From assembly GCF_024298765.1 (NCBI RefSeq), contig NZ_CP101210.1: a stretch of DNA of 64,000 bases; one strand, written 5' to 3'. Shown piece by piece: positions 2,572 through 54,294 of the stretch. The position numbers and the translations under genes are program-made. How positions within the stretch are numbered: position 1 is the first letter of the stretch; the number at the start of each line of letters is the position of its first letter. This stretch comes from Escherichia coli (GTDB taxonomy: Bacteria > Pseudomonadota > Gammaproteobacteria > Enterobacterales > Enterobacteriaceae). Under the pieces are notes generated by a model. The model was not told where the DNA came from. It ran no database searches and saw nothing but the letters and a program-made list of their open reading frames with translations.

Positions 2572-2600
2572 TTAAACAGGGTGACAGTCCGACATACCGG

Positions 2601-10645: not shown

Positions 10646-12625
10646 ATGAACTTACAAGACAAAGAACAAAGCGCCAAACTCTCCAGTGCTATTTGGCGTA
10701 TGGCAGATGATTTATGGGGTGATTTCAAACACACCGATTTTGCGCGGATTATCCTGCCATTTTTGCTACTGCGTCGTATTGAATGCGTGTTAGAACCCAC
10801 CCGTGAGGAAGTTCGTAAGTTCTATCTGGCCGAAAAACAATCCGGCATAGACCTTGGTTTAGTGTTGCCAGAAATTGCGGGATTCGCCTTTTACAACACC
10901 AGTGAATATAGCCTAGAAACCTTAGGCGCGTCAGACACCGGCGACAACCTAGAACACTACATCAGCCAGTTCAGCAAAAACGTTCGTACCATCTTTGATG
11001 AGTTTAAATTTGGTCAAACCATAGAAGATCTGGAAAAAGCCAAGTTGCTGTATCGCATGGTAAACCATTTTGCCAACCTCGACTTGCATCCTGATGTAGT
11101 GTCTGACCGCGTATTATCAGATGCTTATGAAGAGCTGATTCTAAAGTTCGCCAGTTCGGTTAATGAAAAGGCCGGGGAATTTATGACCCCGCGTGATGCC
11201 GTGCGTCTTGCCACCAAACTGGTGCTGGCGGCGGATGAAGATATCTTTAGTGAAAAGGGTGTGATCCGCACCATCTATGACCCAACCTGTGGCACGGGCG
11301 GTTTCCTTTCCGATGCCATTAGCCAAATTGAAGAAATGGGCAGCAGCGCTAAAGTCGTGCCTTTTGGTCAAGAGCTCGACCCCGCGACCCATGCCATGGC
11401 GCTGACCAATATGATGATCCGCGGTTTTGATGCCAATAACATCAAGCAAGGCAACACCTTATCAGACGATCAGTTACGTGCCGACAAGTTTCACTACGGC
11501 CTTGCCAACCCGCCATTTGGCATTAAGTGGGAAAAAGCCAAGAAAGAAGTAGAACGTGAGCACAAACAGCTCAAATACGCCGGACGCTTTGGGCCAGGCC
11601 TGCCGAGTATTTCTGATGGTTCAATGCTGTTTTTACTGCACTTGGTATCAAAAATGGAAACGCCGGAAAATGGTGGTGGCCGAGTGGGTATAGTCCTTTC
11701 TGGCTCGCCACTGTTTAATGGCGATGCAGGCTCAGGCCCATCAGAAATCCGCCGTTGGCTGCTAGAACAAGACTTAGTCGAAGCGATTGTTGCCCTGCCA
11801 ACCGATATGTTCTTCAACACCGGCATTGGCACCTACATCTGGATTTTGACTAACCATAAAGAGCCAAGACGCAAGAATCAGGTGCAACTGATTAACTTGG
11901 CAGATATTTGGACTCCCATGCGTAAATCGCAAGGCGATAAGCGCAAGTACCTGAGTGATGAACAGATTGACGATATTGTCCGTGCGTACGATGGCTTTGA
12001 AGCCAGTGACAACTGTAAGATCTTCCAGACTACTGATTTTGCCTACCGTAAAGTCACCATTCAGCGTCCACTGCGTGCCAAACTAGATATTACCGCTGCG
12101 GGCATTGCTGCATTTGTGCAGCAAGATACGTTTAAAAAACTCAAACCAGAGCAACAAGCGGCATGGGTACAATACCTCACCGATAACCTTGGCCTTCAGC
12201 CTTATGAATGGGCACGTTTGGCGGTTAAGAAGAATAACAATAAGGGTGACTTTGGTAAGTGCTCAAAAGCACTGGCTACGGCCTTAACTGCGCACTTTGT
12301 AAAAATTGATCCGCAATTTGAGCCTGCACTGGATGAAAAAGGCCAAGTGATCGCCGACCCTAAACTCAAAGACACCGAAAGCATTCCTTTTGACCGCGAC
12401 GTTGAAGATTACTTCGCACAAGAGGTGCTGCCACATGTACCGGATGCCTTTATTGATCACTCAGTGCGTGATGAAAAAGACGGCGAAGTGGGCATTGTCG
12501 GTTATGAAATTAACTTTAACCGCTATTTCTACCAATACGTGCCACCACGCGAGTTGAGTGTGATTGATCGTGAGCTAAAAGCATGTGAAGCGCGCATTCA
12601 GGCTCTGCTGAATGAGGTGGCGTAA
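10646..12625 (+). CDS. hsdM: Type I restriction-modification methyltransferase subunit HsdM
   Basis: 659 aa; motifs FMTPR, DPTCGTGGFL (SAM binding), NPPFG (catalytic); stop overlaps hsdS start (TAATG). Confidence 0.9.
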   Translation: MNLQDKEQSAKLSSAIWRMADDLWGDFKHTDFARIILPFLLLRRIECVLEPTREEVRKFYLAEKQSGIDLGLVLPEIAGFAFYNTSEYSLETLGASDTGDNLEHYISQFSKNVRTIFDEFKFGQTIEDLEKAKLLYRMVNHFANLDLHPDVVSDRVLSDAYEELILKFASSVNEKAGEFMTPRDAVRLATKLVLAADEDIFSEKGVIRTIYDPTCGTGGFLSDAISQIEEMGSSAKVVPFGQELDPATHAMALTNMMIRGFDANNIKQGNTLSDDQLRADKFHYGLANPPFGIKWEKAKKEVEREHKQLKYAGRFGPGLPSISDGSMLFLLHLVSKMETPENGGGRVGIVLSGSPLFNGDAGSGPSEIRRWLLEQDLVEAIVALPTDMFFNTGIGTYIWILTNHKEPRRKNQVQLINLADIWTPMRKSQGDKRKYLSDEQIDDIVRAYDGFEASDNCKIFQTTDFAYRKVTIQRPLRAKLDITAAGIAAFVQQDTFKKLKPEQQAAWVQYLTDNLGLQPYEWARLAVKKNNNKGDFGKCSKALATALTAHFVKIDPQFEPALDEKGQVIADPKLKDTESIPFDRDVEDYFAQEVLPHVPDAFIDHSVRDEKDGEVGIVGYEINFNRYFYQYVPPRELSVIDRELKACEARIQALLNEVA

Positions 12626-13911
12626 TGAATGCTGGCAACATAGTAGATGCTTTCGTATCTGACTCGAAATGGAACTCAGTACCAGCTAAACGTTTATTTA
12701 CGAGTAGCAAAGAAATCAATCAAGGAATGAAAGAATCTAATCGTCTTGCACTAACAATGAAAGGTGTCATAAACCGCTCGTTAGACGATTTACAAGGACT
12801 TCAATCTTCTGATTACTCTGTTTATCAGATTTTTGAAAAAGATGACTTAGTTTTTAAGCTCATAGATCTTGAAAATATAAAGACTAGCCGAGTGGGGATT
12901 GTGCATGAACGAGGAATAATGAGCCCTGCATACATCCGTGTTTCAGCGAGTTCAAATAGCATCTACCCAAGGTTCTATTACTGGTACTTTTTTGCTCTAT
13001 ACCTAACCAATATTTATAACAAACTGGGTGGAGGAGTTCGTCAGAACCTAACAGCTGGTGATCTTTTAGAAATACCTGTTCCACTGATTGATATTTCATT
13101 ACAGAAGCAGGTTAGCACATTCCTTGATCGCGAAACCCAGCGCATCGACAGTCTGATCGAGGAAAAGCAGACCTTTATTAAGCTGCTCAAAGAAAAACGC
13201 CAAGCACTGATCAGCCATGTGGTCACAAAGGGGCTCTATCCCAATGTGGAGATGCAGGACTCTGGCATCGAGTGGATTGGGCAAGTGCCGAAGCATTGGG
13301 AAGTCAAAAAGATAAAGCATATTTGCTCCAACTTTATGTATGGAACCTCTCAAGACTGTAACCAGTCTGATGTTGGCTATCCTGTTCTCAGGATACCAAA
13401 CATCAAGAGTACCAATGTTGATTTTGAAGATCTCAAATATGCAAATATCAGTGATGTTGATGCTTTAACTTATCTTTTATCAAGAGGCGACATTTTAGTC
13501 ATCAGAACTAACGGTAACCCTAATCTGGTCGGCCAAAGCGCGCTTTTTGATTCAAATGGGCAGTATTTATTTGCGTCGTACCTAATAAAGTTAACACCAA
13601 AGCAAGGAGTGGATACTAGCTTCTTAGTGGAAGCGATGAACTCACTATCTGTTCGTCAAGCATTAACATTTCAGTCAAGAACATCGGTAGGTAACTACAA
13701 CCTGAGCATTCCTTCACTAGCTAATACAAGTATTGCTATCCCACCAATTGATGAGCAAAAGACAATAACGAATTACTTGAGTGCAGCAACGATAAACATT
13801 GATTTACTGATTCAAGAGACTGATAAATCGATTGATCTTCTAAAAGAACACCGCACATCGCTGATCAACGCGGCTGTCACAGGAAAAATAGACGTCAGGG
13901 AGGCGGTGTAA
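12625..13911 (+). CDS. hsdS: Type I restriction-modification specificity subunit HsdS
   Basis: 428 aa; two variable target-recognition regions separated by conserved central (ETQRIDSLIEEKQTFIKLLKEKRQALI) and C-terminal repeats; TAATG overlaps on both sides. Confidence 0.85.
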   Translation: MNAGNIVDAFVSDSKWNSVPAKRLFTSSKEINQGMKESNRLALTMKGVINRSLDDLQGLQSSDYSVYQIFEKDDLVFKLIDLENIKTSRVGIVHERGIMSPAYIRVSASSNSIYPRFYYWYFFALYLTNIYNKLGGGVRQNLTAGDLLEIPVPLIDISLQKQVSTFLDRETQRIDSLIEEKQTFIKLLKEKRQALISHVVTKGLYPNVEMQDSGIEWIGQVPKHWEVKKIKHICSNFMYGTSQDCNQSDVGYPVLRIPNIKSTNVDFEDLKYANISDVDALTYLLSRGDILVIRTNGNPNLVGQSALFDSNGQYLFASYLIKLTPKQGVDTSFLVEAMNSLSVRQALTFQSRTSVGNYNLSIPSLANTSIAIPPIDEQKTITNYLSAATINIDLLIQETDKSIDLLKEHRTSLINAAVTGKIDVREAV

Positions 13912-16900
13912 TGGCTGCACATCATGAAGTGCATTTTGAACAATATATTACCGAGCAGTTGGTGAACAATGGCTGGAAAGAAGGCCATTCCTGCCACTAT
14001 GACCAGCAACGCGCCCTTTACCCGCAAGATGTCATGGATTGGGTAAAGGCCACCCAGCCAGATGCCTGGCACAAACTGAATAAACTGCATGGTGTGAATG
14101 CCGAGCAGGTGCTGTTGGAGCGTTTGGAAAAAGCCCTCTCTTCCCACAAAGCTGGCAGTAAAACAGGTGGCACCATTAATGTGCTGCGTAAAGGCTTTAC
14201 CATTGCAGGTTGCGGCACGATTGCCATGGGCCAACGCAAACCCGAAGATGCGCGCAATGAAGAGCGTATAGCCCGTTATGAGCACAACATTTTGCGCGTG
14301 GTGCGCCAACTGAAATATTGCCCGACTCGCGAGTGGGAAATTGACTTGGTGTTCTTTATCAACGGTCTACCCGTTGCCACCGCCGAGCTAAAAACCGATT
14401 TTACCCAGTCGCTAGAATCGGCGATTGCGCAGTACAAAGAGGATCGTCTGCCCGTTGACCCAAAAACCAAGCGTAAAGAGCCGCTGTTAACCTTTAAACG
14501 CGGTGCAGTGGTACATTTTGCCATGTCTGATACAGAAATCGCCATGGCGACCAAACTGGCGGGAGAAAATACCTATTTTCTGCCCTTCAATAAAGGCCAT
14601 GATGGTTCTACCTCTGATTTGCCCGTACACATCAACTTGCCGGGTGAAGATGGAGAGTATCCGGTCAGCTATTTTTGGCAAGAAATTGCCCAAAAAGATA
14701 ATTGGCTACGCATTTTCTACAGCTTTGTGTATGTCGAAACCAAAGAGGTTGCCGATAGCAATGGCAAGGTTGAGCGTAAGGAAACACAGATTTTTCCGCG
14801 TTATCATCAGTTAGCCGCAGTCAACAAGATGATTGATGATGCCCGCCAGAACGGCGCAGGCATGCAGTATCTTTGTGAGCACAGCGCCGGTTCGGGAAAA
14901 ACCTCTACCATAGCCTGGACGGCCCATGATTTGATTCGTTTACGCAGCACCGATGGTAAAGCGGTCTTTAAATCAGTGATCATTGTGACCGACCGCACCG
15001 TGCTGGATTCGCAGTTGCAAGATGCGGTGCAACAGCTGGATCATCAATATGGGGTGATTAAGGCGATTGATCGCGAAAAGAGCAGCGAGTCGAAATCAAA
15101 ACAGCTGACTGAAGCGCTATTGACTGGCACGCCGATCATTGTAGTGACGATTCAAACCTTCCCATATGCGTTAGAAGCGATTCTGACCAATCAATCTTTG
15201 GCACAAAGTAACTTTGCGGTGATCATCGATGAAGCACACACCTCGCAAACAGGCTCTACAGCCAAAGGGTTACGCGCAGCGCTTACTCTAAACCTTAGCC
15301 CTCAAGAGTTGGAGCAAATGAGCATTGAGGACATTCTTACTAAGGTGCAAGAAGCGCGCGCCATGCCCAAGAACGTTTCGCACTTTGCTTTTACGGCAAC
15401 ACCCAAGCACAGCACCAAGATGTTGTTTGGCCGCCCGAAAGACCCTAACCAACCAGTGTCAGATGACAATCTTCCTGAATCGTTCCACCTCTACACCCAA
15501 CGTCAGGCCATTGATGAGGGTTTTATTCTTGATGTGCTGGAGAATTACACCCACTACGATACAGCCTACAAAATTGGTGAGAACAATCTGGATGAGAAGC
15601 GCGTAGACAGCAAACAAGCTCGCCGCGCGTTGGCGCGCTGGATGTCACTGCACCCAACCACGGTCAGCCAAAAAGTCGAATTTATTATTAAGCACTTCAA
15701 GGCCAATATCGCTCACCTACTGGAAGGTGAAGCCAAAGCCATGGTGGTCACATCGGGCAGGCCACAGGCGGTGAAATACAAGCTTGCTTTTGATAAATAC
15801 ATTAAAAAGCATGGTATTGAAGGTATCCAAGCCTTGGTTGCCTTCTCGGGCAAAGTCCCCGGCAAAGATTTGGGTGATGAAGACAGCCAAGACCCGCTAG
15901 AAATTGATTTCGATAAAGAGTACACCGAGTACAACTTAAACCCAGACACGCACGGGGCTGACCTGCGCCATGAGTTTGAGAAAACCGAATATCGCGTCAT
16001 GTTAGTCGCCAACAAGTTCCAAACGGGCTTTAATCAACCAAAACTGGTTGCCATGTATTTGGATAAGAAAATATCCGATGTAGAAGCGGTGCAAACGCTG
16101 TCTCGCCTAAACCGCACCTATCCAGGCAAAGACACAACCTTCGTGATTGATTTTGTTAACGATCCACAAACCATTCTCAATGCGTTCAAAAAGTACGACA
16201 AAGGCGCGCAGCTTAATGAAGTGCAAGATGTGAACGTCATCTATGACATCAAAGATATTTTGGATGAACAGAACATATACAACCATCAAGATTTAGAGTT
16301 GTTTAAGCAAGCGCGTGGTAAATCGATTCTCGGCCAATCACCTGACAAAAAGCCACACGCGCACAAGAAACTGCTAGCTGCCACACAACGCCCTACCGAT
16401 GTGTTCAACGTTAAGCTCAAAGAGCTGGTTGATGCTGCAAACCATTGGGATCAGCAATACAACAAAGCGCACCTTGCGGGTGATGAAAAAGCGGCGAACT
16501 ACGCAGAATCTCAGCGCAGTGATTTCACCAAGCAGCGCGAAGCACTAATGCGTTTTAAGTCAGATTTAGCTCGATTTGTGAAGCACTATAGCTATATGGC
16601 GCAATTGATTGAGTTTGGTGATCCTGAACTGGAAAACTTTGCCGCGTTTGCTCATTTGCTATCACGTCGATTGAAAGGGGTAACACCAGAAAACATCGAT
16701 CTCAGTGCACTGGTACTAGAAAAATTCAAAATCAAATACGACAAAGAGCCGCTTCCAGAAGCGTTTAATCAGGTACTTGAACCTATCCGCCCCAACTATA
16801 ACGACCCTGCGGATCGTGAACAGGCATTTCTTGCCGATATCATTCGCCGCCTAAACGAACTGTTTGGCGATGTCGGCGACGAACCCGGTCGCCGAAACTT

Positions 16901-17147
16901 TGCCAACGGTACTATTACGCGTGTCACCCAAAATCCAATTGTGGTTGAGCAGATAGAAAAGCACGACAAGTCGATTGCCCTCAAAGGCGACTTGCCGCAA
17001 GCGGTGAAGCAAGCCGTTGTGCAGGCTCTGCTGAAAGAAGGTGATATAGCCCGAACGCTACTCAAAGACCCACAAGTTATGGCAAGTTATGTTGAGTTGA
17101 TTTTTGACATGATGAAGCAAGGTGCAGAACAGGCGGCGGTGAAATAA
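13911..17147 (+). CDS. hsdR: Type I restriction enzyme endonuclease/helicase subunit HsdR
   Basis: 1078 aa; Walker A GSGKTST and DEAH box (VIIDEAHTSQ); GGGAGG RBS; TAATG overlap with hsdS and with downstream gene. Confidence 0.9.
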   Translation: MAAHHEVHFEQYITEQLVNNGWKEGHSCHYDQQRALYPQDVMDWVKATQPDAWHKLNKLHGVNAEQVLLERLEKALSSHKAGSKTGGTINVLRKGFTIAGCGTIAMGQRKPEDARNEERIARYEHNILRVVRQLKYCPTREWEIDLVFFINGLPVATAELKTDFTQSLESAIAQYKEDRLPVDPKTKRKEPLLTFKRGAVVHFAMSDTEIAMATKLAGENTYFLPFNKGHDGSTSDLPVHINLPGEDGEYPVSYFWQEIAQKDNWLRIFYSFVYVETKEVADSNGKVERKETQIFPRYHQLAAVNKMIDDARQNGAGMQYLCEHSAGSGKTSTIAWTAHDLIRLRSTDGKAVFKSVIIVTDRTVLDSQLQDAVQQLDHQYGVIKAIDREKSSESKSKQLTEALLTGTPIIVVTIQTFPYALEAILTNQSLAQSNFAVIIDEAHTSQTGSTAKGLRAALTLNLSPQELEQMSIEDILTKVQEARAMPKNVSHFAFTATPKHSTKMLFGRPKDPNQPVSDDNLPESFHLYTQRQAIDEGFILDVLENYTHYDTAYKIGENNLDEKRVDSKQARRALARWMSLHPTTVSQKVEFIIKHFKANIAHLLEGEAKAMVVTSGRPQAVKYKLAFDKYIKKHGIEGIQALVAFSGKVPGKDLGDEDSQDPLEIDFDKEYTEYNLNPDTHGADLRHEFEKTEYRVMLVANKFQTGFNQPKLVAMYLDKKISDVEAVQTLSRLNRTYPGKDTTFVIDFVNDPQTILNAFKKYDKGAQLNEVQDVNVIYDIKDILDEQNIYNHQDLELFKQARGKSILGQSPDKKPHAHKKLLAATQRPTDVFNVKLKELVDAANHWDQQYNKAHLAGDEKAANYAESQRSDFTKQREALMRFKSDLARFVKHYSYMAQLIEFGDPELENFAAFAHLLSRRLKGVTPENIDLSALVLEKFKIKYDKEPLPEAFNQVLEPIRPNYNDPADREQAFLADIIRRLNELFGDVGDEPGRRNFANGTITRVTQNPIVVEQIEKHDKSIALKGDLPQAVKQAVVQALLKEGDIARTLLKDPQVMASYVELIFDMMKQGAEQAAVK

Positions 17148-17701
17148 TGAATACTGCGTTTCGGGTTTTACTTACGTTCAATGCAACATCACTACTAGTG
17201 ATTATCTTTGCGGTACAAAAAGGGTACTCACTCGGATATTTCTTTGGTGGTTTCGCTTGCTTCGATTGGATAGCAGCACTTCCGAACGCAGTATCATATT
17301 TACTCTATTTTCTTATCCCTGTTTTATCGACTGGATTGAGTATTTGGCTGAGTAAGTATTTGGGTAAAGACGATTTTAAGGCGGGTGAAGTAGCGAGTAT
17401 TGAGCATGCCAATAACAGCTTCCTACCAAGTTATTTGGGTTACTTTTTCGTGGCGTTGAGCATTGGTAACTGGGAGACATTGTGGTTTGTTTATGGCGTT
17501 TTGTTTGTTTTTACTCTCTTATCGCAAGCACTCTACTTTAACCCATTGTTTTTACTGTTTGGTTATGAGTTTTATAACATTACAACCAAAAACGGAACGG
17601 CCATTTTCCTTATTAGCCGAGAGCGCTACAAGAAGCCAGATGACATCGAAATATCATTGGCTTATCGAATCAATAATTACACATTTATCGAGCGAGGATA
17701 A
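17147..17701 (+). CDS. small integral membrane protein (about 4 predicted TM helices), translationally coupled to hsdR; KwaA-like candidate
   Basis: 184 aa; hydrophobic segments LLVIIFAV, YLLYFLIPVLSTGLSIWL, YLGYFFVALSI, LWFVYGVLFVFTLL; start overlaps hsdR stop (TAATG); visibly more AT-rich than hsdR. Confidence 0.6.
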   Translation: MNTAFRVLLTFNATSLLVIIFAVQKGYSLGYFFGGFACFDWIAALPNAVSYLLYFLIPVLSTGLSIWLSKYLGKDDFKAGEVASIEHANNSFLPSYLGYFFVALSIGNWETLWFVYGVLFVFTLLSQALYFNPLFLLFGYEFYNITTKNGTAIFLISRERYKKPDDIEISLAYRINNYTFIERG

Positions 17702-18543
17702 TGATGGACCATGTACTGGCACATATAAAAACTAGAGCAAAAAAACGCATTTTCAAATTGGTTTCTGATCAATCTCTTTTTGATACCGTCACAATCGACT
17801 TAAATGCCTGTATTCCATACAATCCAGACCATAACCTTGACGAAGACTCATGGTTTAAAATTGAAGACTTTAGTCAAAAAGAGTTTTGTATTGAACTGCT
17901 AAAAAAAGACTATGATTCAAAAGACTACGATGACTTAACCAAAGATAACTTCGCCAAGATCGCCTACTTATTTGCAATTCAAGGTAATGATTTTTACTTT
18001 CAAAAAATCACTCCAAGCCTATTCGTAAAACGCAAAACGCTTGTTTTTGGTGAAGCCGCAGAAATTGAGAAGAGCCAAACACGTTTAGTAATAAACGCCT
18101 TACCTGATGCAGTGTACTTCAAAGTGGCCGATACCTTGATATTCAAAAATCTGGCAACGATCTCGAGCATTTTTAAAGGTATCGATGAGTTGTACAAGGA
18201 AGCAACAAAAGAAGAAGTTGAGCAGTTTTTAGATGCACAGTTTATAGAGTTGGGTAATGACTACAACGTAGATAGCGTCTCAAAACCTAATAGAAAACGT
18301 ATTGGCCTTGCTATGGCAACACTTGATGCGATGTCTGCTGACGATAAAGCTAACATGCTTGATTATATCGACGGTTACTGCGGTGAACAGAAGCTGAAAT
18401 TCGATAAAGAAAATCAGAAGTTTGAAATATCTAATGACGATGAGTTGAAGTTACTGCTTTATGGCATTGAACAACGCTTCTATACGACCCCGTTTGGCAA
18501 AGAAAAAAGGCTCGCTAACTCTGTAACCGCTATGGATAAATAA
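17701..18543 (+). CDS. hypothetical acidic cytoplasmic protein, coupled to the membrane protein; KwaB-like candidate
   Basis: 280 aa, no TM segments, GAGG RBS, start overlaps upstream stop (TAATG); family not recognised by eye. Confidence 0.6.
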   Translation: MMDHVLAHIKTRAKKRIFKLVSDQSLFDTVTIDLNACIPYNPDHNLDEDSWFKIEDFSQKEFCIELLKKDYDSKDYDDLTKDNFAKIAYLFAIQGNDFYFQKITPSLFVKRKTLVFGEAAEIEKSQTRLVINALPDAVYFKVADTLIFKNLATISSIFKGIDELYKEATKEEVEQFLDAQFIELGNDYNVDSVSKPNRKRIGLAMATLDAMSADDKANMLDYIDGYCGEQKLKFDKENQKFEISNDDELKLLLYGIEQRFYTTPFGKEKRLANSVTAMDK

Positions 18544-18563
18544 TAGCCCATTATCAGTAACAT

Positions 18564-19613
18564 ATGAAGGTTGATTCAATGGCCGATAACATCCCACAAG
18601 CTCCTCAAGGTGAGTTTGTTCTTTTCACCAGTGCTGATGGTCAAACCCGCGTTGAGTGTCGTTTTGAGTCTGACACCTTGTGGCTTTCTCAGGCTGCAAT
18701 GGCAGAGCTTTATCAAGTTAGCTCTCAAGCAATCACCCAACACGTAAAAGCTGTCTATTCTGAAGAAGAGCTTGAGCAAATTTCAACTTGTAAGGATTAC
18801 TTACAAGTTCAACTGGAAGGTGGCAGAGAAGTAAAGCGAAGCATTCGTCACTACAGTCTTCCGGTTATTCTTGCAGTAGGATACCGAGTTCGCTCAACAC
18901 GTGGCACCCAGTTCCGCCAATGGGCAACCAGAATGTTGCAAGAATACCTAATCAAAGGATTCGTCATGGATGACGAGCGCCTGAAAAATCCGCCCATTGG
19001 CCATTCTGCTGTGCCAGATTACTTTGATGAAATGCTGGAACGCATTCGTGATATCCGAGCTAGTGAGCGTCGCGTTTATCTGCGAGTCAAAGAAATCTTT
19101 ACCATGGCTGCTGATTACGAGCCATCTAACCAAGAGACCAACCGCTTCTTCCAAACCATTCAGAATAAGCTGCATTATGCTTGTACGCATATGACGGCTG
19201 CTGAGCTTATCGCCAGCCGTGTGGATGCCAGTAAGCCGGATATGGGCTTAACCAGCTATAAAGGCGATGAAGTGCGCAAGACAGACGTTACTGTTGCCAA
19301 GAACTATTTGCGTGAAGACGAAATCAAAGAGCTTAATCGCATCGTCAATATGTGGCTCGACTTTGCTGAAGACCAAGCACTGCGTCGCAAGCAGGTATTT
19401 TTACAGGACTGGGCCGATAAGCTTGACCAGTTCTTGAGTTTTAACGATAGAGATGTATTAAACGGTGCAGGAAAAATCTCCAAGAAAGACGCTGATGACA
19501 AAGCGAAATTGGAGTTTGACCGCTTTGCCCAGCAGCGCCGTCGTTTAAAAGAAGCCGAAGGCGCACGGGCCAATATCGCAGCCCTCAAGGCCATACTAAA
19601 AAAAGATAAATAG
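18564..19613 (+). CDS. rhuM: RhuM-family protein
   Basis: 349 aa; sequence recalled as RhuM family, often found beside Type I RM loci; likely true start at ATG 18579 (GAAGG RBS). Confidence 0.55.
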   Translation: MKVDSMADNIPQAPQGEFVLFTSADGQTRVECRFESDTLWLSQAAMAELYQVSSQAITQHVKAVYSEEELEQISTCKDYLQVQLEGGREVKRSIRHYSLPVILAVGYRVRSTRGTQFRQWATRMLQEYLIKGFVMDDERLKNPPIGHSAVPDYFDEMLERIRDIRASERRVYLRVKEIFTMAADYEPSNQETNRFFQTIQNKLHYACTHMTAAELIASRVDASKPDMGLTSYKGDEVRKTDVTVAKNYLREDEIKELNRIVNMWLDFAEDQALRRKQVFLQDWADKLDQFLSFNDRDVLNGAGKISKKDADDKAKLEFDRFAQQRRRLKEAEGARANIAALKAILKKDK

Positions 19614-22986: not shown

Positions 22987-26237
<3,251 letters not shown>

Positions 26238-26922
26238 GTTCCAGCTCTTTCAGACGCTGACGTTCAGCGCTGGTGAGCCCACCATCACCGCCCCCGGTAT
26301 CCCGCTCATGCTGGCGAACCCAGACACGCAGAGTCTCCGGCGTACAGCCAATCTTTGGAGCAATGGAACAAATTGCCGCCCACTGTGAGTCATATTCATC
26401 CTGACTTTCCAGAACCATACGAATCGCCCGCTGACGGACTTCGGGGGAAAAACGAGTATTTTTAGTCATCCTGTTTACCTCTTTCTCAGGGAGTTTAGTC
26501 TCCAGGATTTCCGGGGCGGTTCAAATACTGGGCGAAGGGAGATGTTATTGCGAAGCGCGCGCCAATTGGTCAGTGGGAACCTTATTCGGAAGAGTCACTA
26601 CTTGGCATCATCGTCACCAGCGTCTGTCGTATTAAAGTCGCGATGCTAAAACCTGAACCTCCCAGAGATCCCCATATCCCGCTGATGGGGGATTTTAACT
26701 AAAACTTAGCGCTATCGCTGCGTATCGTAACTATCCCGTATTACGTAGCGTAAATTATGACGCCATACGGGGAACAAATACACAGAGGAAGAAAAAGATT
26801 AGATTGGTTTTAAGGGATGTTTTTATCATAAATGGCACTGCTAAAATTATGAGATTATCGAAGATAAAATTCTTGATCATACATAAAAGGCCTCCTGAAT
26901 TAAATCAAGAGGCGTATAGTTT

Positions 26923-28041
26923 TTACATTACTGATGTATGTTTAATGATCTCACTGATTTTCACTTTCCTGTCCTGCGATCTTGAAAGAGTGGCAGCATC
27001 AGCAGTAGCAATCGCCGACATGGCCGCCTCACCATTGAGAAGGTCAATATAATCTTCTTCAGGTTTTGCACCACAGAGGATATTATGGAGGAATAACGTC
27101 TCCTTTCTTATTAAACTGGCAAGCCATAATGGTGTTTTTTTTCCTGGATGACCATATGCTATAGCGCCATCCATTTCTGAGGTCATATTGCCTTTCCGAC
27201 GATCATCATCTTCTTCTTGTGTTTCATGGACCAAAAAATGCTTTGTCTGACCGCCAATCCTAAGTGACCCTGCTGTTTCTTGCATATCAATTTTAATAGA
27301 GCCTTTAGTTCCATTGATGATGACATAATGTTCCGGCCAGTTAAATGCACTCCCCCACTCTAAGGTTGCTAGTTTTCCTGACGGGAATTCCAAGGTCATA
27401 AATAACATATCATCTTCATTGCCAAATCCTGGACCAGAATGGGCCAAATTTCCACCAATCATAGTAACCGTCTCTGGTATTTCTCCAAGTAAATGCTGAA
27501 CACAATCTAACTCATGTATATGATGATATAGATGTCCACCAGATTTTTCTTTCATCTTTTTCCAGGAAAGTCTCTCTTGTTTGTTTTCCCAGCCATTTCT
27601 CTTAGTATGACATGATAATATTTCGCCGATAACACCTTCTTTAATTAACTTCCGTGCATATTGAACCCCATTGAAAAAATTCATAATATGCCCGGCCATA
27701 AAGGTCACACCAGCTTCTTTACACGCTTTGACCATATCCACACAATCTTCATAACTTAATGCAATTGGTTTTTCACAAAAAACATGCTTCTTATTCTTTG
27801 CTGCTTTAATTACTGGTTCTTTATGCAGATAATTTGGGGTGGCTACGATCACGCAATCGACTAATTTACTTGAGACTAAAGCATCCAAGCTTGACATATT
27901 GATACACTGCAATTCACGGGCAATATTTTCTCCATTTTCAGGATCGTATACACATGTAATTTTTGCATTATCATGCATATTCATAAAACGAGCTAATTCA
28001 GCGCCAAAGTATCCAACACCAACAACGCCATAATTAATCAT
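26923..28041 (-). CDS. yjhC: Gfo/Idh/MocA family NAD(P)-dependent oxidoreductase (YjhC-like)
   Basis: 372 aa; N-terminal Rossmann GVVGVGYFG; partner MFS gene immediately upstream. Confidence 0.6.
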   Translation of the reverse strand: MINYGVVGVGYFGAELARFMNMHDNAKITCVYDPENGENIARELQCINMSSLDALVSSKLVDCVIVATPNYLHKEPVIKAAKNKKHVFCEKPIALSYEDCVDMVKACKEAGVTFMAGHIMNFFNGVQYARKLIKEGVIGEILSCHTKRNGWENKQERLSWKKMKEKSGGHLYHHIHELDCVQHLLGEIPETVTMIGGNLAHSGPGFGNEDDMLFMTLEFPSGKLATLEWGSAFNWPEHYVIINGTKGSIKIDMQETAGSLRIGGQTKHFLVHETQEEDDDRRKGNMTSEMDGAIAYGHPGKKTPLWLASLIRKETLFLHNILCGAKPEEDYIDLLNGEAAMSAIATADAATLSRSQDRKVKISEIIKHTSVM

Positions 28042-28052
28042 AAAGCCTCCAA

Positions 28053-29270
28053 TTATTTAGCCACGGATAGTTTATAAATTTTACCTGGAATATCAAAACC
28101 AACTAACAAAATTAATAAGGCAGAGAATGCAACCGTAACAATGAATAATGAAACACCTAAGCCATAATATCCTGAAATGTATGTAGCTAATACAGGTGCG
28201 GCCATTCCTCCAGTTGCCCCTAAGTTATAAATAAGACCGGTCCCTAATCCTCTTAATTTTGTTGGAAAGTAATCATATATAAATTTTGGAACCAACCCTG
28301 CAATACCTAAATTTGTAAACATTAATCCAAAGAGACATAATCCTATAAGAGAAGAGTTTTTCACAGAAATAAAAAAAAGAGGACAAAGGAAAACAAATGA
28401 AGTTATTAGACCGACTACAAAGGCTTTTTTTACACCAATCTTATCACCAACAAAACCAAAAAATATTGTACCTGTCAGTGTTCCTAAACCTGCTATTGTC
28501 ATCAGAGTTGAAATAACCACTGTATTAACTCCATTATCTGCCAGGTAGGAAGGAAGTAGTCCGTTTATCGGCCAGTTTGCACCAAATAGACAAAAACAGA
28601 CGAGGAAAACGATCATAGAGATTGAAAGATGTGGTTTTCTGAAGACAGACAAAAAAGTTGATTTATCCTTATATTTATCTTCAATCCACTCCTGACTTTC
28701 TGGAGCACTTTTTCTGATCCAAAGAACTAGTAAAACTGGTAACAGGCCTATAAAAAAAGAGTTTCTCCATCCATATACTTCAGCAAACTGAGGGATTATT
28801 TGTGCCGCAATAATATTTCCAACAGAAAAACCACTTACCAAAAAAGCACTAGCTTTAGATTGAAGATTTTTAGGCCAACTTTCTACCGCATAAGTTGAAG
28901 CACATGCATATTCACCAGACATCCCTAAGCCAACAATAAAACGGCAAACTGCGAGCATATATAAGTTTGTAGCAATACCGCTAAGGCCTGTTCCGACTGA
29001 GTAAATGATAATTGCCCACATCATCATTGGCTTACGACCATATTTATCAGCCATGGCACCAAAAAAACCACCTCCAATAGGTCTGGCTATGAAGGCCACT
29101 GTCCCTATTAAAGTAGCCTGAATATCCGTAATGCCAAGATCTGCTTTTATAATATGAAGAATGTAAAATATCATCATAAAATCAAAGCCATCAAATACAT
29201 ATCCAAGCCATGCGGAAAAAAGAGCTTTCCGTTGTGGTGGATTAACTTGTTTATACCATGCTGTTGCCAT
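28053..29270 (-). CDS. yjhB: MFS transporter (YjhB-like, sialic-acid-derivative transporter family)
   Basis: Start placed at ATG 29270 (AGGA RBS); multiple TM segments and MFS motif GRKP. Confidence 0.6.
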   Translation of the reverse strand: MATAWYKQVNPPQRKALFSAWLGYVFDGFDFMMIFYILHIIKADLGITDIQATLIGTVAFIARPIGGGFFGAMADKYGRKPMMMWAIIIYSVGTGLSGIATNLYMLAVCRFIVGLGMSGEYACASTYAVESWPKNLQSKASAFLVSGFSVGNIIAAQIIPQFAEVYGWRNSFFIGLLPVLLVLWIRKSAPESQEWIEDKYKDKSTFLSVFRKPHLSISMIVFLVCFCLFGANWPINGLLPSYLADNGVNTVVISTLMTIAGLGTLTGTIFFGFVGDKIGVKKAFVVGLITSFVFLCPLFFISVKNSSLIGLCLFGLMFTNLGIAGLVPKFIYDYFPTKLRGLGTGLIYNLGATGGMAAPVLATYISGYYGLGVSLFIVTVAFSALLILLVGFDIPGKIYKLSVAK

Positions 29271-29681
29271 ATTTGTTTCCTGTGTTATTCTAATATAGCC
29301 CTTAAAGTAAATATTAGGGAGCCTCAACAATATCCAGAAATAATTATATTGTCTTCAAATACGCCAGTACTATTGATGGTTATCAATACCTAATCAGTAC
29401 AATCTTTTCCTCCATTTCTTCTTAACATATTTCACTCTATGAAAGATAAAACTGATACCCACCTACAGTTTTGGGTCACCAACAAAAAACAATGTTCGCC
29501 AGATATTCCACCACTGGCACAGTTCAACCCTGCTTCAAAAATTGACTTATTCATTGTGCTCATTTTCGTAGTCCGTTCAGGTTGAATAAAACTCCCTTAG
29601 TCAAATGAGGAAAGACTGAGAGGTTATTACTTTAGCTTACGTTATAGCTGTTTTCCTTTGCAGTATTTCCTTGCTTTTCTG

Positions 29682-29704
29682 TATACCTTTATACCTGTTA
29701 TACC
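29682..29704 (-). promoter_or_regulatory. NanR-type operator (three tandem GGTATA repeats)
   Basis: Minus strand reads GGTATAACAGGTATAAAGGTATA, about 410 bp upstream of the yjhB-like start. Confidence 0.45.
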
Positions 29705-30023
29705 AGATCAAAAAACAAGCAATCCACATAACAAAACGCGTTTTGTTACTGATGTCACAAATTGAGCATATTTTTGTAGCTGATAGTTTGTTACAAACAC
29801 CAGAACCAAGATGCCTATTTCGTTTCAGCATCAACTGTTAAATTATCTGGTTGCCAACGAGAATACTGAGCTTTTTTGTCCCCAAGACTGACCGTCAACG
29901 CCACAATCTTTGACTGTTTGACATTGTCATGCCCGCAGGCCAGCGGATCTAAAGACATTAGACTGCTTGCATCAGCCAGTTGCGTATCTGGCTATGTCCC
30001 TTAATTGGTAAGGGTTCGAGGAA

Positions 30024-30240
30024 CTCAACATTAACGCATTTTTCAGCGCATCACCGACAGTGTATATGAACGATTGCACTCTGACGATGGTTGATTTATT
30101 TGGTTGCGTAGGGGCTAGCTAGTCTGGTACCGGAGGCTGGATCTGAAGTACTGACCCCAGGAATAACGCCGGGCTGACTCATATTCTGACCCATTGTCAG
30201 CCCGCGTGTTTACTGCTCTAGCTCATTTCCTGTTGTCAGG
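30024..30240 (+). repeat. copy 1 of a diverged intergenic repeat (partner at 55381-55690)
   Basis: Shared blocks GACGATGGTTGATTTATT, GGTACCGRAGGCTGG.TCTGAAGTACTGA, CTGACCC.TTGTCAGCCCGCGTG and GCTCATTTCCTGT.GTCAG. Confidence 0.5.
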
Positions 30241-30282
30241 CGTTCAATTCCCAACTGCAGGTTATGGCCCGGTGCACAAACA

Positions 30283-30670
30283 CCTGACGGCAGGTATCAC
30301 TTACCCGAAGAAGGTAAAGCCCTCAAGAGGCAGTAACTCAGCCAACCTCTCCTCCGGCCACTCCGGCAGACGCGTCAGGACGTCCGTCAGCCAAGCATGT
30401 GGCTCCAGACTGCGGTTCCCAGAAGGCTCATTATCTGTGCCGCGCGGTTCCCGGCCATCAGTGAACCAGCGAACAACCAGGCCTTTCGTCCCATAACGAC
30501 CAGACGGATAGCACGCTCGCAGATATTGTTGTGTGTGCCTTGAAATGCACGATCTTTCCGTCGGTGAAAGTCCGCCCCGGCTAACTCTCGCTCCGACTGG
30601 AAGGACAAGAAGCGGTCCAGGAGGTAACAAAAGGGCTGAATCTCTCCCTGAAACGACTTCTTCAGGAAGT
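30283..30670 (-). pseudogene. IS66-family tnpC 3-prime fragment, frameshifted
   Basis: C-terminal TnpC-like peptides (NNICERAIRLVVMGRKAWLFAGS; HAWLTDVLTRLPEWP) in two frames; GTAAGTGATACC-type IS66 terminus near 30283-30303. Confidence 0.55.
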
Positions 30671-31098
30671 CAACGGGTTATGCGGGCCGTAATGTGAGTG
30701 AACACTGAGCAGCCATCGAAATGCCGTCGAGGGTGCTGACACGCCACAATAACGGGGAAGGCCGACGATGACCGGGAAGAGAGTGAGAAAGGCATCGGTC
30801 ATACCCACCGGGGTTGTGGTGTCAGCATGCATAACAATTGATCGATCGTGCAACAAGAGAAGTCCATAACGATGTCTGTCCGGGTGACGGGCAACAACGC
30901 CTCGCGAGGGGGTGAATCGGTTGTTATGGATGGCAGATGGGGTGTAGTAGTGAAAATACTGAGTAATGTCAGAGGAGCGAAGGCCCCCTCTTGCAGTACC
31001 AGTGTAACATGCAGGAAGAGCCCGGGGATTGCCATCAGCCTCACAACCCCGCTCGAACCGGTTCAGAACCTACAGAAAACACTACAGGAGAAAGCAAA

Positions 31099-32214
31099 GT
31101 GAACCGCCCCGTGTTTCCTGTTTATCATTTTCTGGTCAGTGCCGCGATTCTGGTATTCGTGGTGATTTTCTGGCGGACACACCATCGCGACCACCGTAAC
31201 TGGCTGGCTCTACGGCTATTCGTATTATGCTCTGTAAACCGTTGGCCATTGCGGATGGTTAAAGGAACAGTTGTGGGGACAACTGACACATTACGTGAAA
31301 TGCAGCGTTATGAACAACTGAGTCAGCACGGGGCTGACAACTGGAAAATCCAGCCGGGAGCACCGTTATATGATACGATTGTTATTGTCACTGGTGAGAA
31401 TGTGCGCAGGGATTATATGTCAGTGTATGGCTATCTCGTACCAACCACACCGTGGCTGAATACGGCACCCGGTTTATTTATTGACGATTATACCTTGACA
31501 GCCTCCAGTACAGTGTCTTCCCTGAGCCGGACACTGATTTATGACTATGAGCAGAACCCTGATTCCGGCAACAATGTGGTGGCGCTGGCAGCAAAAGCAG
31601 GATACAGCACATGGTGGATATCCAATCAAGGAAAACTGGGGGAGCATGACACACGCATCTCTGTTATTGCTTCTGATGCGGAGCATGCCACTTTCCTCAA
31701 GAAAGGCAGCTTCGCTTCCCGTAAAACAGATGACAAACTGTTGTTACAGGAAACAGAACGTGCGCTGGCGGATACATCCTCTCCGAAGATAATTTTCCTG
31801 CACATGATGGGTTCTCATCCAAATCCGTGTGACAGCCTTAACTCCTGGCCGAATAATTACCTGGAGCAGTATCCCCGAAAAATTGCCTGTTACCTCGCCA
31901 GCATCAGTAAACTGGATAACTTTCTTGGCCAGCTTGATGGTATCCTTCGCCGGTACTCACATCATTTCGCCATGCTTTACTTTTCTGGCCTTGGGCTGTC
32001 GGTCAGCGACAGTGCCAATCCTGTTCATCATTATGGTCATGTGCAGGGAGGCTACAGTGTGCCACTGATTATTACCGCCAGTGACATAACGTCTCATCAG
32101 CCCGTCAGTAGAAAAATCAGTGCCCGTCATTTCGCAGGTATTTTTCAGTGGATGAACGGTATTTGTACTGAAAATATACCGCCATTCAATCCGCTGACAG
32201 ACGAAGATAATTAA
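31099..32214 (+). CDS. sulfatase-like (alkaline phosphatase superfamily) membrane-anchored hydrolase/transferase, possibly N-terminally truncated
   Basis: GTG start with AGGAG RBS; one N-terminal TM then motifs IVIVTGENVRRDYMSVYGY and YSTWWISNQG...HD resembling phosphoethanolamine-transferase catalytic domains; IS5 abuts the stop codon. Confidence 0.5.
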   Translation: MNRPVFPVYHFLVSAAILVFVVIFWRTHHRDHRNWLALRLFVLCSVNRWPLRMVKGTVVGTTDTLREMQRYEQLSQHGADNWKIQPGAPLYDTIVIVTGENVRRDYMSVYGYLVPTTPWLNTAPGLFIDDYTLTASSTVSSLSRTLIYDYEQNPDSGNNVVALAAKAGYSTWWISNQGKLGEHDTRISVIASDAEHATFLKKGSFASRKTDDKLLLQETERALADTSSPKIIFLHMMGSHPNPCDSLNSWPNNYLEQYPRKIACYLASISKLDNFLGQLDGILRRYSHHFAMLYFSGLGLSVSDSANPVHHYGHVQGGYSVPLIITASDITSHQPVSRKISARHFAGIFQWMNGICTENIPPFNPLTDEDN

Positions 32215-48823: not shown

Positions 48824-49744
48824 ATGAGCACAAGAGTATGGGTACTTGGTGATGCGGTTGTTGATTTATTACCCGAAAGCCAGGGGAGACTACTACAGTG
48901 TCCTGGCGGGGCGCCTGCTAATGTTGCAGTCGGTATCGCAAGGCTGGGGGGGAAAAGTGCCTTTATTGGCAAAGTTGGCGATGATCCTTTCGGTCGCTTT
49001 ATGTATCAGACACTGAGTACAGAAAATGTTGATACACGTTATATGTCTCTTGATCCTCAACATCGCACCTCAATTGTGGCTGTAGGACTTGATGAGCAAG
49101 GAGAAAGAAACTTTACCTTTATGGTACGCCCAAGTGCCGATCTTTTTTTACAACCTGATGGCCTTCCTGCATTTGGGCCGGGTGAATGGCTCCATCTTTG
49201 TTCCATTGCGCTCAGTGCAGAACCTTCCCGAAGTACCGCATTTCTGGCTATGGAGAAAATACGTCAGGCTGGCGGAAACATCAGTTTTGATCCCAATATC
49301 CGCAGCGATCTCTGGCAGAGTGAAGCGCTATTAAGGAAATACCTTGATCGCGCACTTTCGCTGGCGAATATCGCTAAATTGTCCGAAGAAGAGTTGCTAT
49401 TCATCAGTGGCGAAAGCCAGGTTCAGCAAGGCGCATATTCATTAGTACAACGTTATTCGTTGACTTTATTGCTTATCACACAAGGAAAAAATGGCGTACT
49501 TGTGTATTTTCAGGGGCAGTTTATCCACTATCCCGCCAAACCTGTTTCTGTCGTCGATACGACCGGGGCAGGAGATGCTTTTGTCGCTGGATTACTTGCC
49601 GGTCTGGCTGATTCTGGAATACCAACAAATACCAGACAGCTTGAACGAATCATTGTACAAGCTCAGATTTGTGGTGCTCTGGCGACCACGGCTAAAGGCG
49701 CGATGACCGCCTTACCCCGACAACACGATCTCCCTTCACAATAG
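48824..49744 (+). CDS. scrK: fructokinase
   Basis: 306 aa; ribokinase/pfkB family motifs (GGAPANVA; DTTGAGDAF); first gene of scr cluster. Confidence 0.85.
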   Translation: MSTRVWVLGDAVVDLLPESQGRLLQCPGGAPANVAVGIARLGGKSAFIGKVGDDPFGRFMYQTLSTENVDTRYMSLDPQHRTSIVAVGLDEQGERNFTFMVRPSADLFLQPDGLPAFGPGEWLHLCSIALSAEPSRSTAFLAMEKIRQAGGNISFDPNIRSDLWQSEALLRKYLDRALSLANIAKLSEEELLFISGESQVQQGAYSLVQRYSLTLLLITQGKNGVLVYFQGQFIHYPAKPVSVVDTTGAGDAFVAGLLAGLADSGIPTNTRQLERIIVQAQICGALATTAKGAMTALPRQHDLPSQ

Positions 49745-49795
49745 TGATCCTGCTGTTGTATCTGTAACCCGATTTGTCGTGCCTGTCACATTTAC

Positions 49796-49866
49796 TAAAT
49801 CGGTTTAGCGAAAATAATTGCTTTGGCTAAAAAGTCAGCTTTATTATCAACACCTAAACCGGTTTA
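49796..49866 (+). promoter_or_regulatory. scrY promoter region with two palindromic LacI-type operators
   Basis: TAAATCGGTTTA at 49796-49807 and perfect palindrome TAAACCGGTTTA at 49855-49866. Confidence 0.55.
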
Positions 49867-49887
49867 GCATTTTAGCAATTTTTATAA

Positions 49888-51429
<1,542 letters not shown>

Positions 51430-51489
51430 TACCAGACAACCTCACAGATGTGAAGTTTTTACTGAAATAACAATGAATTAGAGGGTTAT

Positions 51490-52860
51490 ATGGATTTCGA
51501 TAAAATCGCCCAATCGTTGCTTCCTTTATTAGGTGGTAAGGAGAACATCGCCAGTGCAGCACATTGCGCCACTCGCCTACGGCTGGTACTGGTTGACGAC
51601 ACACTTGCCGATCAACATGCCATTGGCCAGATTGATGGAGTGAAAGGTTGTTTTCGTAATTCAGGGCAAATGCAAATTATCTTTGGCACCGGCGTGGTTA
51701 ATAAAGTCTATGCTGCCTTTATTCAGGTTGCAGGTATTAGCGAATCCAGTAAAGCAGATATCGCTCGACTCGCCGCTCAAAAACTCAATCCTTTTCAGCG
51801 AATAGCACGGCTACTTTCTAATATTTTTGTCCCCATCATTCCAGCCATTGTTGCTTCTGGTTTATTAATGGGGCTTCTGGGAATGGTGAAAACATATGGC
51901 TGGGTGAATACCGATAATGCGATTTATATCCTGCTGGATATGTGCAGTTCAGCCGCATTTATTATTCTCCCCATCCTTATTGGCTTTACTGCTGCTCGTG
52001 AATTTGGTGGAAATCCTTATCTTGGCGCGACATTAGGAGGGATTCTGACTCACCCGGCACTCACAAATGCCTGGGGCGTTGCTGCGGGATTTCAGACAAT
52101 GAACTTCTTCGGTTTTGAAATCGCCATGATTGGCTATCAGGGAACGGTTTTCCCCGTGCTTCTGGCAGTATGGTTTATGAGCATAGTGGAAAAACAGTTA
52201 CGCAGGTTTATCCCTGATGCTCTGGATCTCATTCTGACGCCATTTCTGACTGTCGTCATTTCTGGCTTTATCGCTCTTTTGATTATTGGTCCGGCAGGAC
52301 GAGCGTTAGGTGACGGTATCTCTTTCGTTCTCAGCACGCTGATTGCACACGCAGGCTGGTTAGCAGGGTTGTTATTCGGCGGGCTATATTCAGCGATTGT
52401 TATTACGGGTATTCATCATAGCTTCCACGCAATTGAAGCAGGACTTTTAGGTAACCCTGCAATCGGTGTTAATTTCCTGCTGCCTATTTGGGCAATGGCA
52501 AACGTTGCGCAAGGCGGTGCATGTCTGGCGGTATGGTTTAAAACCAAAGATACAAAAATTAAAGCAATCACCCTACCCTCGGCCTTTTCCGCAATGTTAG
52601 GGATTACTGAAGCCGCTATTTTTGGTATCAACCTTCGTTTTGTTAAACCTTTTATTGCGGCCTTAATTGGTGGCGCTGCCGGCGGTGCCTGGGTTGTCTC
52701 TGTTCACGTTTATATGACTGCCGTTGGTCTGACCGCAATACCCGGCATGGCAATCGTTCAGCCAACATCGTTGGTTAATTATATTATTGGAATGGTGATT
52801 GCTTTCGCTGTCGCTTTTAGCCTCTCTTTATTATTCAAATACAAAACGGACGAGGAGTAA
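51490..52860 (+). CDS. scrA: PTS sucrose-specific EIIBC component
   Basis: 456 aa; EIIB Cys motif (AAHCATRLRL) then membrane EIIC domain. Confidence 0.85.
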   Translation: MDFDKIAQSLLPLLGGKENIASAAHCATRLRLVLVDDTLADQHAIGQIDGVKGCFRNSGQMQIIFGTGVVNKVYAAFIQVAGISESSKADIARLAAQKLNPFQRIARLLSNIFVPIIPAIVASGLLMGLLGMVKTYGWVNTDNAIYILLDMCSSAAFIILPILIGFTAAREFGGNPYLGATLGGILTHPALTNAWGVAAGFQTMNFFGFEIAMIGYQGTVFPVLLAVWFMSIVEKQLRRFIPDALDLILTPFLTVVISGFIALLIIGPAGRALGDGISFVLSTLIAHAGWLAGLLFGGLYSAIVITGIHHSFHAIEAGLLGNPAIGVNFLLPIWAMANVAQGGACLAVWFKTKDTKIKAITLPSAFSAMLGITEAAIFGINLRFVKPFIAALIGGAAGGAWVVSVHVYMTAVGLTAIPGMAIVQPTSLVNYIIGMVIAFAVAFSLSLLFKYKTDEE

Positions 52861-54269: not shown

Positions 54270-54294
54270 GGGTTTTGAATTACGGATCCTCGTC

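What the first reader, a model, noticed from the sequence alone, without database searches (positions are those of the whole stretch)
26923..29704. yjhB/yjhC-like pair with a NanR-type triple GGTATA operator far upstream
An MFS transporter and a Gfo/Idh/MocA oxidoreductase resemble the E. coli yjhBC pair. The exact NanR-type operator GGTATAACAGGTATAAAGGTATA sits about 410 bp upstream of the transporter start, implying sialic-acid-responsive control and a long leader.
Basis: partly seen in the sequence, partly recalled or inferred. Interest (0 to 1): 0.4.

Follow-up and report, generated by a model that had tools for sequence, protein, structure and literature searches.

The report
E. coli nanXY operon, NanR operator
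This is the already characterised Escherichia coli nanXY (yjhBC) operon for using the sialic-acid derivative 2,7-anhydro-Neu5Ac, with its known NanR repressor binding site, so the finding is correct but ordinary.

Summary
On the minus strand lie nanY/yjhC (26923-28041), nanX/yjhB (28053-29270) and the exact 23-bp triple-GGTATA NanR operator (29704-29682). The operator is unique in the window and sits 411 nt before the nanX ATG.

These are not look-alikes. NanX is 403/405 and NanY 371/372 identical to E. coli K-12, and the 490 bp upstream is 99.4% identical. The operon, its NanR control and its function (uptake and hydration of 2,7-anhydro-Neu5Ac and 2,3-didehydro-Neu5Ac) are published. PnanX is already used as a sialic-acid biosensor.

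The long leader is the only inferred part. The nanX, nanC and nanA promoter regions align: a CRP-like site, a GATC, then the operator containing a TATAAC -10. This predicts a start near 29689 and a 5'UTR of about 419 nt. nanC has the same layout (417-nt leader), with significant similarity about 190 nt into the leader.

The leader has no Rfam match and no unusual fold. Its 43-codon ORF is frameshifted in another allele.

I could not read the primary mapping papers. A weak promoter-like site 56 nt before the ATG remains a minor rival.

Novelty: already known. Interest: low.

The parts
26923..28041 (-). nanY (yjhC): NAD-dependent Gfo/Idh/MocA enzyme, 2,7-anhydro-N-acetylneuraminate hydratase (372 aa)
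   Evidence: It is 371/372 identical to K-12 NanY. It matches PDB 6O15 'YjhC' at 860.8 bits over residues 1-372. RefSeq annotates identical DNA as nanY.
28053..29270 (-). [quoted passage not shown]
   Evidence: It is 403/405 identical to K-12 NanX. It scores 786 bits against NCBIfam equivalog NF008963, whose cut-off is 637. Its function comes from the genetics in PMC7535918 and PMC7315737.
29682..29704 (-). NanR operator: three direct GGTATA repeats with 3-nt and 2-nt spacers
   Evidence: There is one exact match in the window and none in 100 shuffles. It is identical to the nanA operator and to 20 of 23 positions of the nanC operator. NanR binding to (GGTATA)3 is described in PMC8012715.
29706..29709 (.). 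GATC (Dam) site immediately 5' of the operator
   Evidence: It is conserved in the nanX, nanC and nanA promoters. The GATC sites beside the NanR operators of nanA, nanC and yjhB change methylation in vivo (PMC5155068).
29744..29759 (-). CRP-like site TGTGAcatcagTAACA (predicted, not tested)
   Evidence: It aligns with AGTGAagcagaTCGCA of nanA and TGTGAcacgaaTTGCA of nanC. Its centre lies 47.5 nt before the operator, against 46.5 nt in nanA. This is inference from sequence.
29697..29702 (-). Predicted -10 hexamer TATAAC inside repeat 1 of the operator, with a predicted start near 29688-29690
   Evidence: The position relative to the CRP-like site puts CRP at about -61.5/-62.5. This is inferred and not mapped here.
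29271..29681 (-). Leader of 411 nt between operator and nanX, 35% G+C
   Evidence: It is present in 1132 of 5426 complete E. coli genomes at 97.6% identity or more. It has no Rfam match and a fold z-score of +0.33. It is collinear with the 417-nt nanC leader, with local z 4.9 and global z 4.6.
26890..26913 (-). Terminator-like hairpin plus T-run 10 nt after the nanY stop
   Evidence: It was found by the consensus scan. It lies between nanY and ythA (26755-26880).

Best explanation
The locus is the accessory sialic-acid operon nanXY (yjhBC) of Escherichia coli. NanX imports 2,7-anhydro-Neu5Ac and 2,3-didehydro-Neu5Ac. NanY converts them to Neu5Ac through an NAD-dependent keto intermediate, and Neu5Ac then enters the core nanATEK pathway. 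Transcription most likely starts inside the (GGTATA)3 operator. A CRP-like site about 62 nt upstream and a TATAAC -10 within repeat 1 form a nanA-type promoter. Three NanR dimers on the repeats would occlude it, and Neu5Ac releases NanR. The transcript would then carry an unstructured 5' leader of about 419 nt before nanX. Shown here: gene identity, the operator, its distance from nanX, and promoter homology. Taken from the literature: NanR control and biochemical function. Inferred: the exact start site, CRP dependence, and that the leader is transcribed as one piece with nanXY.
For: Gene identity rests on 403/405 and 371/372 identities to K-12, 100% DNA matches annotated nanX/nanY, NF008963 passed above its cut-off, and PDB 6O15 YjhC. 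The operator is exact and unique, and it and its flanks are 99.4% identical to K-12. Published work supports the function and regulation. yjhBC is one of three NanR operons sharing this operator (PMC8012715; PMC3658417). yjhB and yjhC are both required for growth on 2,7-anhydro-Neu5Ac and 2,3-EN, and YjhC activity appears only in a nanR mutant (PMC7315737; PMC7535918). A single-copy PnanX reporter is induced by Neu5Ac (bioRxiv 10.1101/2024.10.23.619804). The GATC next to the yjhB operator behaves like those of nanA and nanC (PMC5155068). The promoter architecture aligns across nanX, nanC and nanA. nanC has the same leader length and significant leader similarity. The consensus scan found no minus-strand promoter-like or terminator-like site inside the leader.
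Against: No transcription start was seen directly. The papers that would show it (Kalivoda 2003 and 2013, Condemine 2005) are not held, and PMC3658417 speaks only of 'putative transcriptional start sites'. The -35 region is poor, and the standard promoter scan did not report the operator-overlapping promoter. Shimada 2014 lists a sequence-picked proximal promoter, AAGACA-17-TATTGT, at window 29355-29327. nanR itself is not in the window.
Confidence: 0.9

Rival explanations
1. nanXY is transcribed mainly from a proximal sigma-70 promoter about 50 nt before the ATG (AAGACA-17-TATTGT, 29355-29327). On this reading the distant operator acts as a roadblock-free remote site or controls a different, upstream transcript, so there is no long leader.
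For: RpoD holoenzyme bound the insG-yjhB spacer in genomic SELEX, and this hexamer pair was listed for yjhB (PMC3946193). The pair is present here 56 nt before the ATG. NanR is known to act at a distance on fimB (PMC3173223).
Against: The hexamers match only 8/12 and were chosen by sequence within a low-resolution peak. They fall below the scan threshold used. The operator region carries a complete nanA-type promoter module (CRP-like site, GATC, -10 in the operator) that is conserved in three operons. nanXY is repressed, not activated, by NanR.
Confidence: 0.08
2. The 411-nt leader is a functional regulatory element of its own, such as a small leader peptide (43-codon ORF 29563-29432) or a structured RNA switch.
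For: The ATG and its context (GAAAATGAG) are conserved at the homologous place in the nanC leader. The two leaders have nearly the same length, 411 and 417 nt.
Against: The ORF is frameshifted to 26 codons in the strain 16843 allele. The homologous nanC ATG opens only 12 codons (read from the nanC sequence in the alignment; no ORF of 20 aa or more starts there). There is no family match for the peptide and no Rfam match at E up to 1. The folding energy is no better than shuffles, z +0.33. Similarity to nanC fades after about 190 nt.
Confidence: 0.05
3. The operator is a non-functional relic copied with the nanC regulatory region, and nanXY is not under sialic-acid control in this strain.
For: The region is a low-GC, IS-ridden mosaic. 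Other strains carry IS4 108 bp upstream of the operator or IS1 inside the leader.
Against: Operator, GATC and CRP-like site are intact and identical to K-12, where NanR control has been shown experimentally. No IS interrupts the region in this window.
Confidence: 0.02

Closest known systems
E. coli K-12 nanXY (yjhBC) operon with its NanR operator
   Same: The genes, their order and the operator are the same. The leader has 3 substitutions in 490 bp, and the proteins differ at 2 and 1 residues.
   Different: K-12 has IS4 (insG) inserted 108 bp upstream of the operator, and this window does not. Beyond about 6.5 kb (window 25730-32214) the flanking island is arranged differently from the reference strain compared. 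No complete RefSeq E. coli genome is collinear with a 25-kb query around the locus.
E. coli nanCMS promoter and leader (fimB-nanC intergenic region)
   Same: It has the same promoter module, 92.5% identical over 53 bp including the operator. It also has a leader of nearly the same length, 417 against 411 nt, with collinear similarity.
   Different: The third repeat is GGTGCA instead of GGTATA. The downstream genes are an outer-membrane channel, a mutarotase and an esterase. Similarity fades in the 3' two-thirds of the leader.
E. coli nanATEK-yhcH promoter (nanR-nanA intergenic region)
   Same: It has the identical 23-bp operator, the GATC and a CRP-like site at nearly the same spacing. The 20-mer operator core is conserved in this position across roughly 85 Enterobacterales species genomes.
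   Different: The nanA ATG lies only about 36 nt after the operator, so there is no long leader.
Ruminococcus gnavus NanOx with its ABC transporter for 2,7-anhydro-Neu5Ac
   Same: NanY is homologous to PDB 6Z3B and 6Z3C, at 533 bits. PDB labels both only as Gfo/Idh/MocA family oxidoreductases, and I did not check which organism each entry comes from. PMC7535918 describes R. gnavus NanOx as a NanY homologue with the same chemistry.
   Different: The transporter belongs to a different class, and regulation is not through the GntR-type NanR/(GGTATA)3 system.

Membership tests
E. coli nanXY (yjhBC) operon | MFS transporter orthologous to NanX/YjhB | tested here: met
   It is 403/405 identical to K-12 and scores 786 bits against NF008963, cut-off 637.
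E. coli nanXY (yjhBC) operon | Gfo/Idh/MocA enzyme orthologous to NanY/YjhC, immediately downstream on the same strand | tested here: met
   It is 371/372 identical to K-12 and matches PDB 6O15 over its full length. An 11-nt gap separates the nanX stop from the nanY start.
E. coli nanXY (yjhBC) operon | Growth on 2,7-anhydro-Neu5Ac or 2,3-EN depends on both genes | not testable with these tools
   This was shown for K-12 alleles in PMC7535918 and PMC7315737. It is assumed to transfer at 99.5% identity or more.
NanR sialoregulon (operons repressed by NanR) | Three direct GGTATA repeats spaced 3 and 2 nt, upstream of the operon | tested here: met
   There is an exact 23-mer at 29704-29682, identical to the nanA operator.
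NanR sialoregulon (operons repressed by NanR) | Operator overlaps the promoter or start site, so that NanR blocks RNA polymerase | tested here: inconclusive
   It is supported by alignment with nanA and by the spacing of the CRP-like site. No start-site data were available, and the promoter scan did not call the site.
NanR sialoregulon (operons repressed by NanR) | NanR binding, and derepression by Neu5Ac | not testable with these tools
   The literature covers the identical K-12 operator. nanR is not in this window.
Riboswitch or other structured cis-regulatory leader | Match to a known RNA family, or folding more stable than shuffles | tested here: not met
   There is no Rfam hit at E up to 1 in 29200-29800, and the fold z-score is +0.33.
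Leader peptide / small protein gene | Reading frame conserved among alleles and paralogues | tested here: not met
   The frame is shifted in strain 16843. The homologous nanC ATG opens 12 codons, read from the sequence in the alignment, and no ORF of 20 aa or more starts there.

The most novel reading that the evidence does not exclude
The leaders of nanX and nanC, each about 415 nt, are paralogous: same length, shared 5' 190 nt, shared ATG context. They may be retained because they carry an undescribed common control layer, for example binding of a nucleoid protein or sRNA, or a short upstream ORF that couples translation to transcription. Such a layer would tune the two accessory sialic-acid operons differently from the core nanA operon, which has a short leader.
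Probability: 0.12. Interest if true: 0.3.

Novelty: already known. Interest (0 to 1): 0.08.

Why it matters
It does not change anything known. It confirms that this strain carries an intact, IS-free copy of the accessory nanXY operon with its NanR-controlled promoter. About a fifth of complete E. coli genomes have this locus. It lets the cell scavenge the anhydro- and didehydro-sialic acids released by other gut bacteria's sialidases. The only loose end of any interest is why nanX and nanC, unlike nanA, keep a leader of about 415 nt.

Tried and rejected
- **Primary mapping papers.** I tried to read Kalivoda 2003 and 2013 and Condemine 2005, and none is held. A full-text search for yjhB with transcription start sites gave only Shimada 2014. 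One search failed on syntax.
- **Promoter scan.** The consensus sigma-70 scan gave no minus-strand hit at the operator or in the leader. This is uninformative for a CRP-dependent promoter with a weak -35.
- **First CRP search.** My first automatic search for a CRP site picked the wrong 22-mers for nanX and nanC. I used the aligned site instead.
- **Structured RNA in the leader.** Rejected: no Rfam match and no excess folding stability.
- **Small-protein reading of the 43-codon ORF.** Rejected because of the frameshifted allele.
- **nanX-linked operators in other species.** I scanned one genome per species for the 20-mer operator core. Nearly all hits were nanR-nanA operators, and none lay next to a nanX outside E. 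coli. The scan finds exact matches only, so diverged operators would be missed.
- **Collinear reference genome.** I looked for one to annotate the whole window. None covers 80% or more of a 25-kb query, and strain 165 matches only in blocks.
- **AEM 2026 biosensor paper.** It had nothing on nanX.

Full report
**Observation**

The 23-mer GGTATAACAGGTATAAAGGTATA occurs exactly once in the window, at 29682-29704 on the minus strand. This holds even with three mismatches allowed, and none of 100 dinucleotide-preserving shuffles produced a match. It is the only cluster among 30 scattered GGTATA hexamers.

Two ORFs lie downstream on the same strand. One is 405 codons long (ATG at 29270, ending at 28053). 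The other is 372 codons long (28041-26923), and an 11-nt gap separates them. The 425-aa TTG start at 29330 that the ORF lister reported is an upstream extension. RefSeq annotation and the K-12 protein both start at the ATG. The operator ends 411 nt before that ATG.

**Identity**

The 4-kb segment 26500-30500 is 100% identical to many RefSeq E. coli chromosomes, where the genes are annotated nanX, nanY and ythA.

- Against K-12 BW25113, NanX differs at 2 of 405 residues and NanY at 1 of 372.
- The 490 bp upstream of nanX has three substitutions. None lies in the operator or the sequences just 5' of it.
- NanX passes the NCBIfam equivalog NF008963 (786 bits, cut-off 637).
- NanY matches the crystal structure 6O15, 'YjhC', over its full length.

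The pair does not merely resemble yjhBC. It is yjhBC, now named nanXY.

**What is known**

Three E. coli operons share the (GGTATA)3 operator and are repressed by the GntR-type regulator NanR: nanATEK-yhcH, nanCMS and yjhBC (PMC8012715; PMC3658417).

- Both yjhB and yjhC are needed for growth on 2,7-anhydro-Neu5Ac and 2-deoxy-2,3-didehydro-Neu5Ac.
- YjhC makes Neu5Ac from these compounds with NAD as cofactor.
- YjhC activity is absent from wild-type LB-grown cells and present in a nanR mutant (PMC7315737; PMC7535918).
- A single-copy PnanX-mVenus fusion was the best Neu5Ac-inducible reporter of those tested and is used as a gut biosensor (bioRxiv 10.1101/2024.10.23.619804).
- The GATC next to the NanR operator of yjhB changes its methylation with time, as do those of nanA and nanC (PMC5155068).

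**The long leader**

This is the only part I could not find stated outright. PMC3658417 speaks of 'putative transcriptional start sites'. The primary papers are not in the library.

Sequence comparison supports a start at the operator. The nanX, nanC and nanA upstream regions align as one module:
- a CRP-like site (nanX TGTGAcatcagTAACA, window 29759-29744);
- then TTGATCT, which contains the GATC;
- then the operator.

The centre of the CRP-like site lies 47.5 nt before the operator in nanX and nanC, and 46.5 nt in nanA. With CRP at about -61.5 or -62.5, the -10 is TATAAC inside repeat 1 (29702-29697) and the start falls near 29688-29690. That gives a 5'UTR of about 419 nt.

In nanA the ATG follows the operator by about 36 nt. 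In nanC, as in nanX, the leader is long, 417 nt against 411 nt. The two long leaders are more alike than chance: the local alignment gives z 4.9 at collinear offsets and the global alignment z 4.6, mostly from the first 190 nt or so. The consensus scan found no promoter-like or terminator-like site on the minus strand inside the leader.

A rival remains. Shimada 2014 lists a sequence-picked AAGACA-17-TATTGT for yjhB within an RpoD SELEX peak (PMC3946193). It sits at 29355-29327, 56 nt before the ATG. It matches only 8 of 12 positions, and I give it low weight.

**What the leader is not**

- It has no Rfam match, even at E up to 1.
- Its predicted folding energy is no better than that of shuffles, z +0.33.
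- Its 43-codon ORF (29563-29432) has no family match. A 1-nt deletion in the strain 16843 allele truncates it to 26 codons.
- The homologous ATG in the nanC leader opens 12 codons. I read this from the nanC sequence in the alignment, and no ORF of 20 aa or more starts there.

I therefore treat the leader as an unstructured, AT-rich (35% G+C) untranslated region of unknown extra function, if it has any.

**Distribution and context**

- The leader and operon occur in 1131-1132 of 5426 complete E. coli genomes, about 21%, at 97.6% identity or more. This is consistent with the roughly 15% of isolates reported in PMC10088187.
- The block from about 26600 to 29900 has 31-41% G+C against 48-58% in its flanks. 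It lies among IS remnants.
- In K-12, IS4 sits 108 bp upstream of the operator.
- In strain AVS0096, IS1 sits inside the leader about 40 nt after the operator.
- This window has neither insertion.
- An exact-match scan for the 20-mer operator core over one genome per species returned 90 stretches. Almost all were nanR-nanA intergenic regions of Enterobacterales. Only E. coli showed the nanC copy, and no nanX-linked copy appeared outside E. coli. This agrees with the statement in PMC3658417 that relatives have only one or two nan operators.

**Verdict**

Novelty is 'already known' and interest is low. The one residual curiosity is the paralogous leader of about 415 nt shared by nanX and nanC. 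Start-site mapping and leader deletions would settle it.

Noticed in passing
window 29271-29800 versus L003 1431-1990: The nanX and nanC regulatory regions look paralogous beyond the operator. Their leader lengths are 411 and 417 nt. Similarity is collinear for about 190 nt into the leader, and they share a GAAAATGAG start context. nanA has the same promoter module but only about 36 nt of leader.
   Followed up: partly
L098 (E. coli AVS0096) 1661-2871; L002 (K-12) 2536-3882: IS elements repeatedly hit this promoter region in other strains. IS1 sits inside the leader about 40 nt after the operator, separating the promoter from nanXY. IS4 sits 108 bp upstream of the operator in K-12. Neither is present in the window.
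   Followed up: partly
window 23460-25073 (-): A group II intron 3' domain (Rfam Intron_gpII, 23460-23546) lies directly after a 507-aa reverse transcriptase/maturase ORF (23550-25073). It is next to an IS3-family element with an ALIL frameshift pseudoknot at 26073-26188.
   Followed up: no
window 30558-30697 (+): There is an isolated group II intron D1-D4 fragment (RF02003, 67 bits) with no adjacent RT ORF, upstream of the nanX promoter. It lies among transposase and phosphoethanolamine-transferase pseudogene remnants (30301-32214).
   Followed up: no
window 10646-19613 (+): A complete-looking type I restriction-modification cluster is present: HsdM 10646-12625, HsdS 12625-13911 and HsdR 13911-17147. 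Two ORFs without Pfam matches and a RhuM-family gene (18564-19613) follow it.
   Followed up: no
window 48824-55302 (+): There is a sucrose-type PTS cluster: PfkB kinase, LamB-family porin, EIIBC, GH32 hydrolase and a LacI-family regulator, in a scrKYABR-like order. IS10 follows it (transposase 59835-61043, RNA-OUT 61036-61105), along with another DDE transposase.
   Followed up: no
L077 (Methylobacterium mesophilicum NBRC 15688, 265-bp contig); L011 ('Bacteroides' MAG); L080 ('Chryseobacterium sp. 18061'): Three assemblies of unrelated taxa carry enterobacterial nan operator DNA. L077 is 99.3% identical to window 29668-29812. These look like contamination or mis-binning in public assemblies.
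   Followed up: partly
window 20000-44999: No complete RefSeq E. coli genome is collinear with this 25-kb stretch. The best single place covers 64%, and the blocks shared with strain 165 are rearranged. The island around nanXY is therefore a strain-specific mosaic. In strain 165 the same nanXY block lies in an island next to a tRNA-Phe gene.
   Followed up: partly
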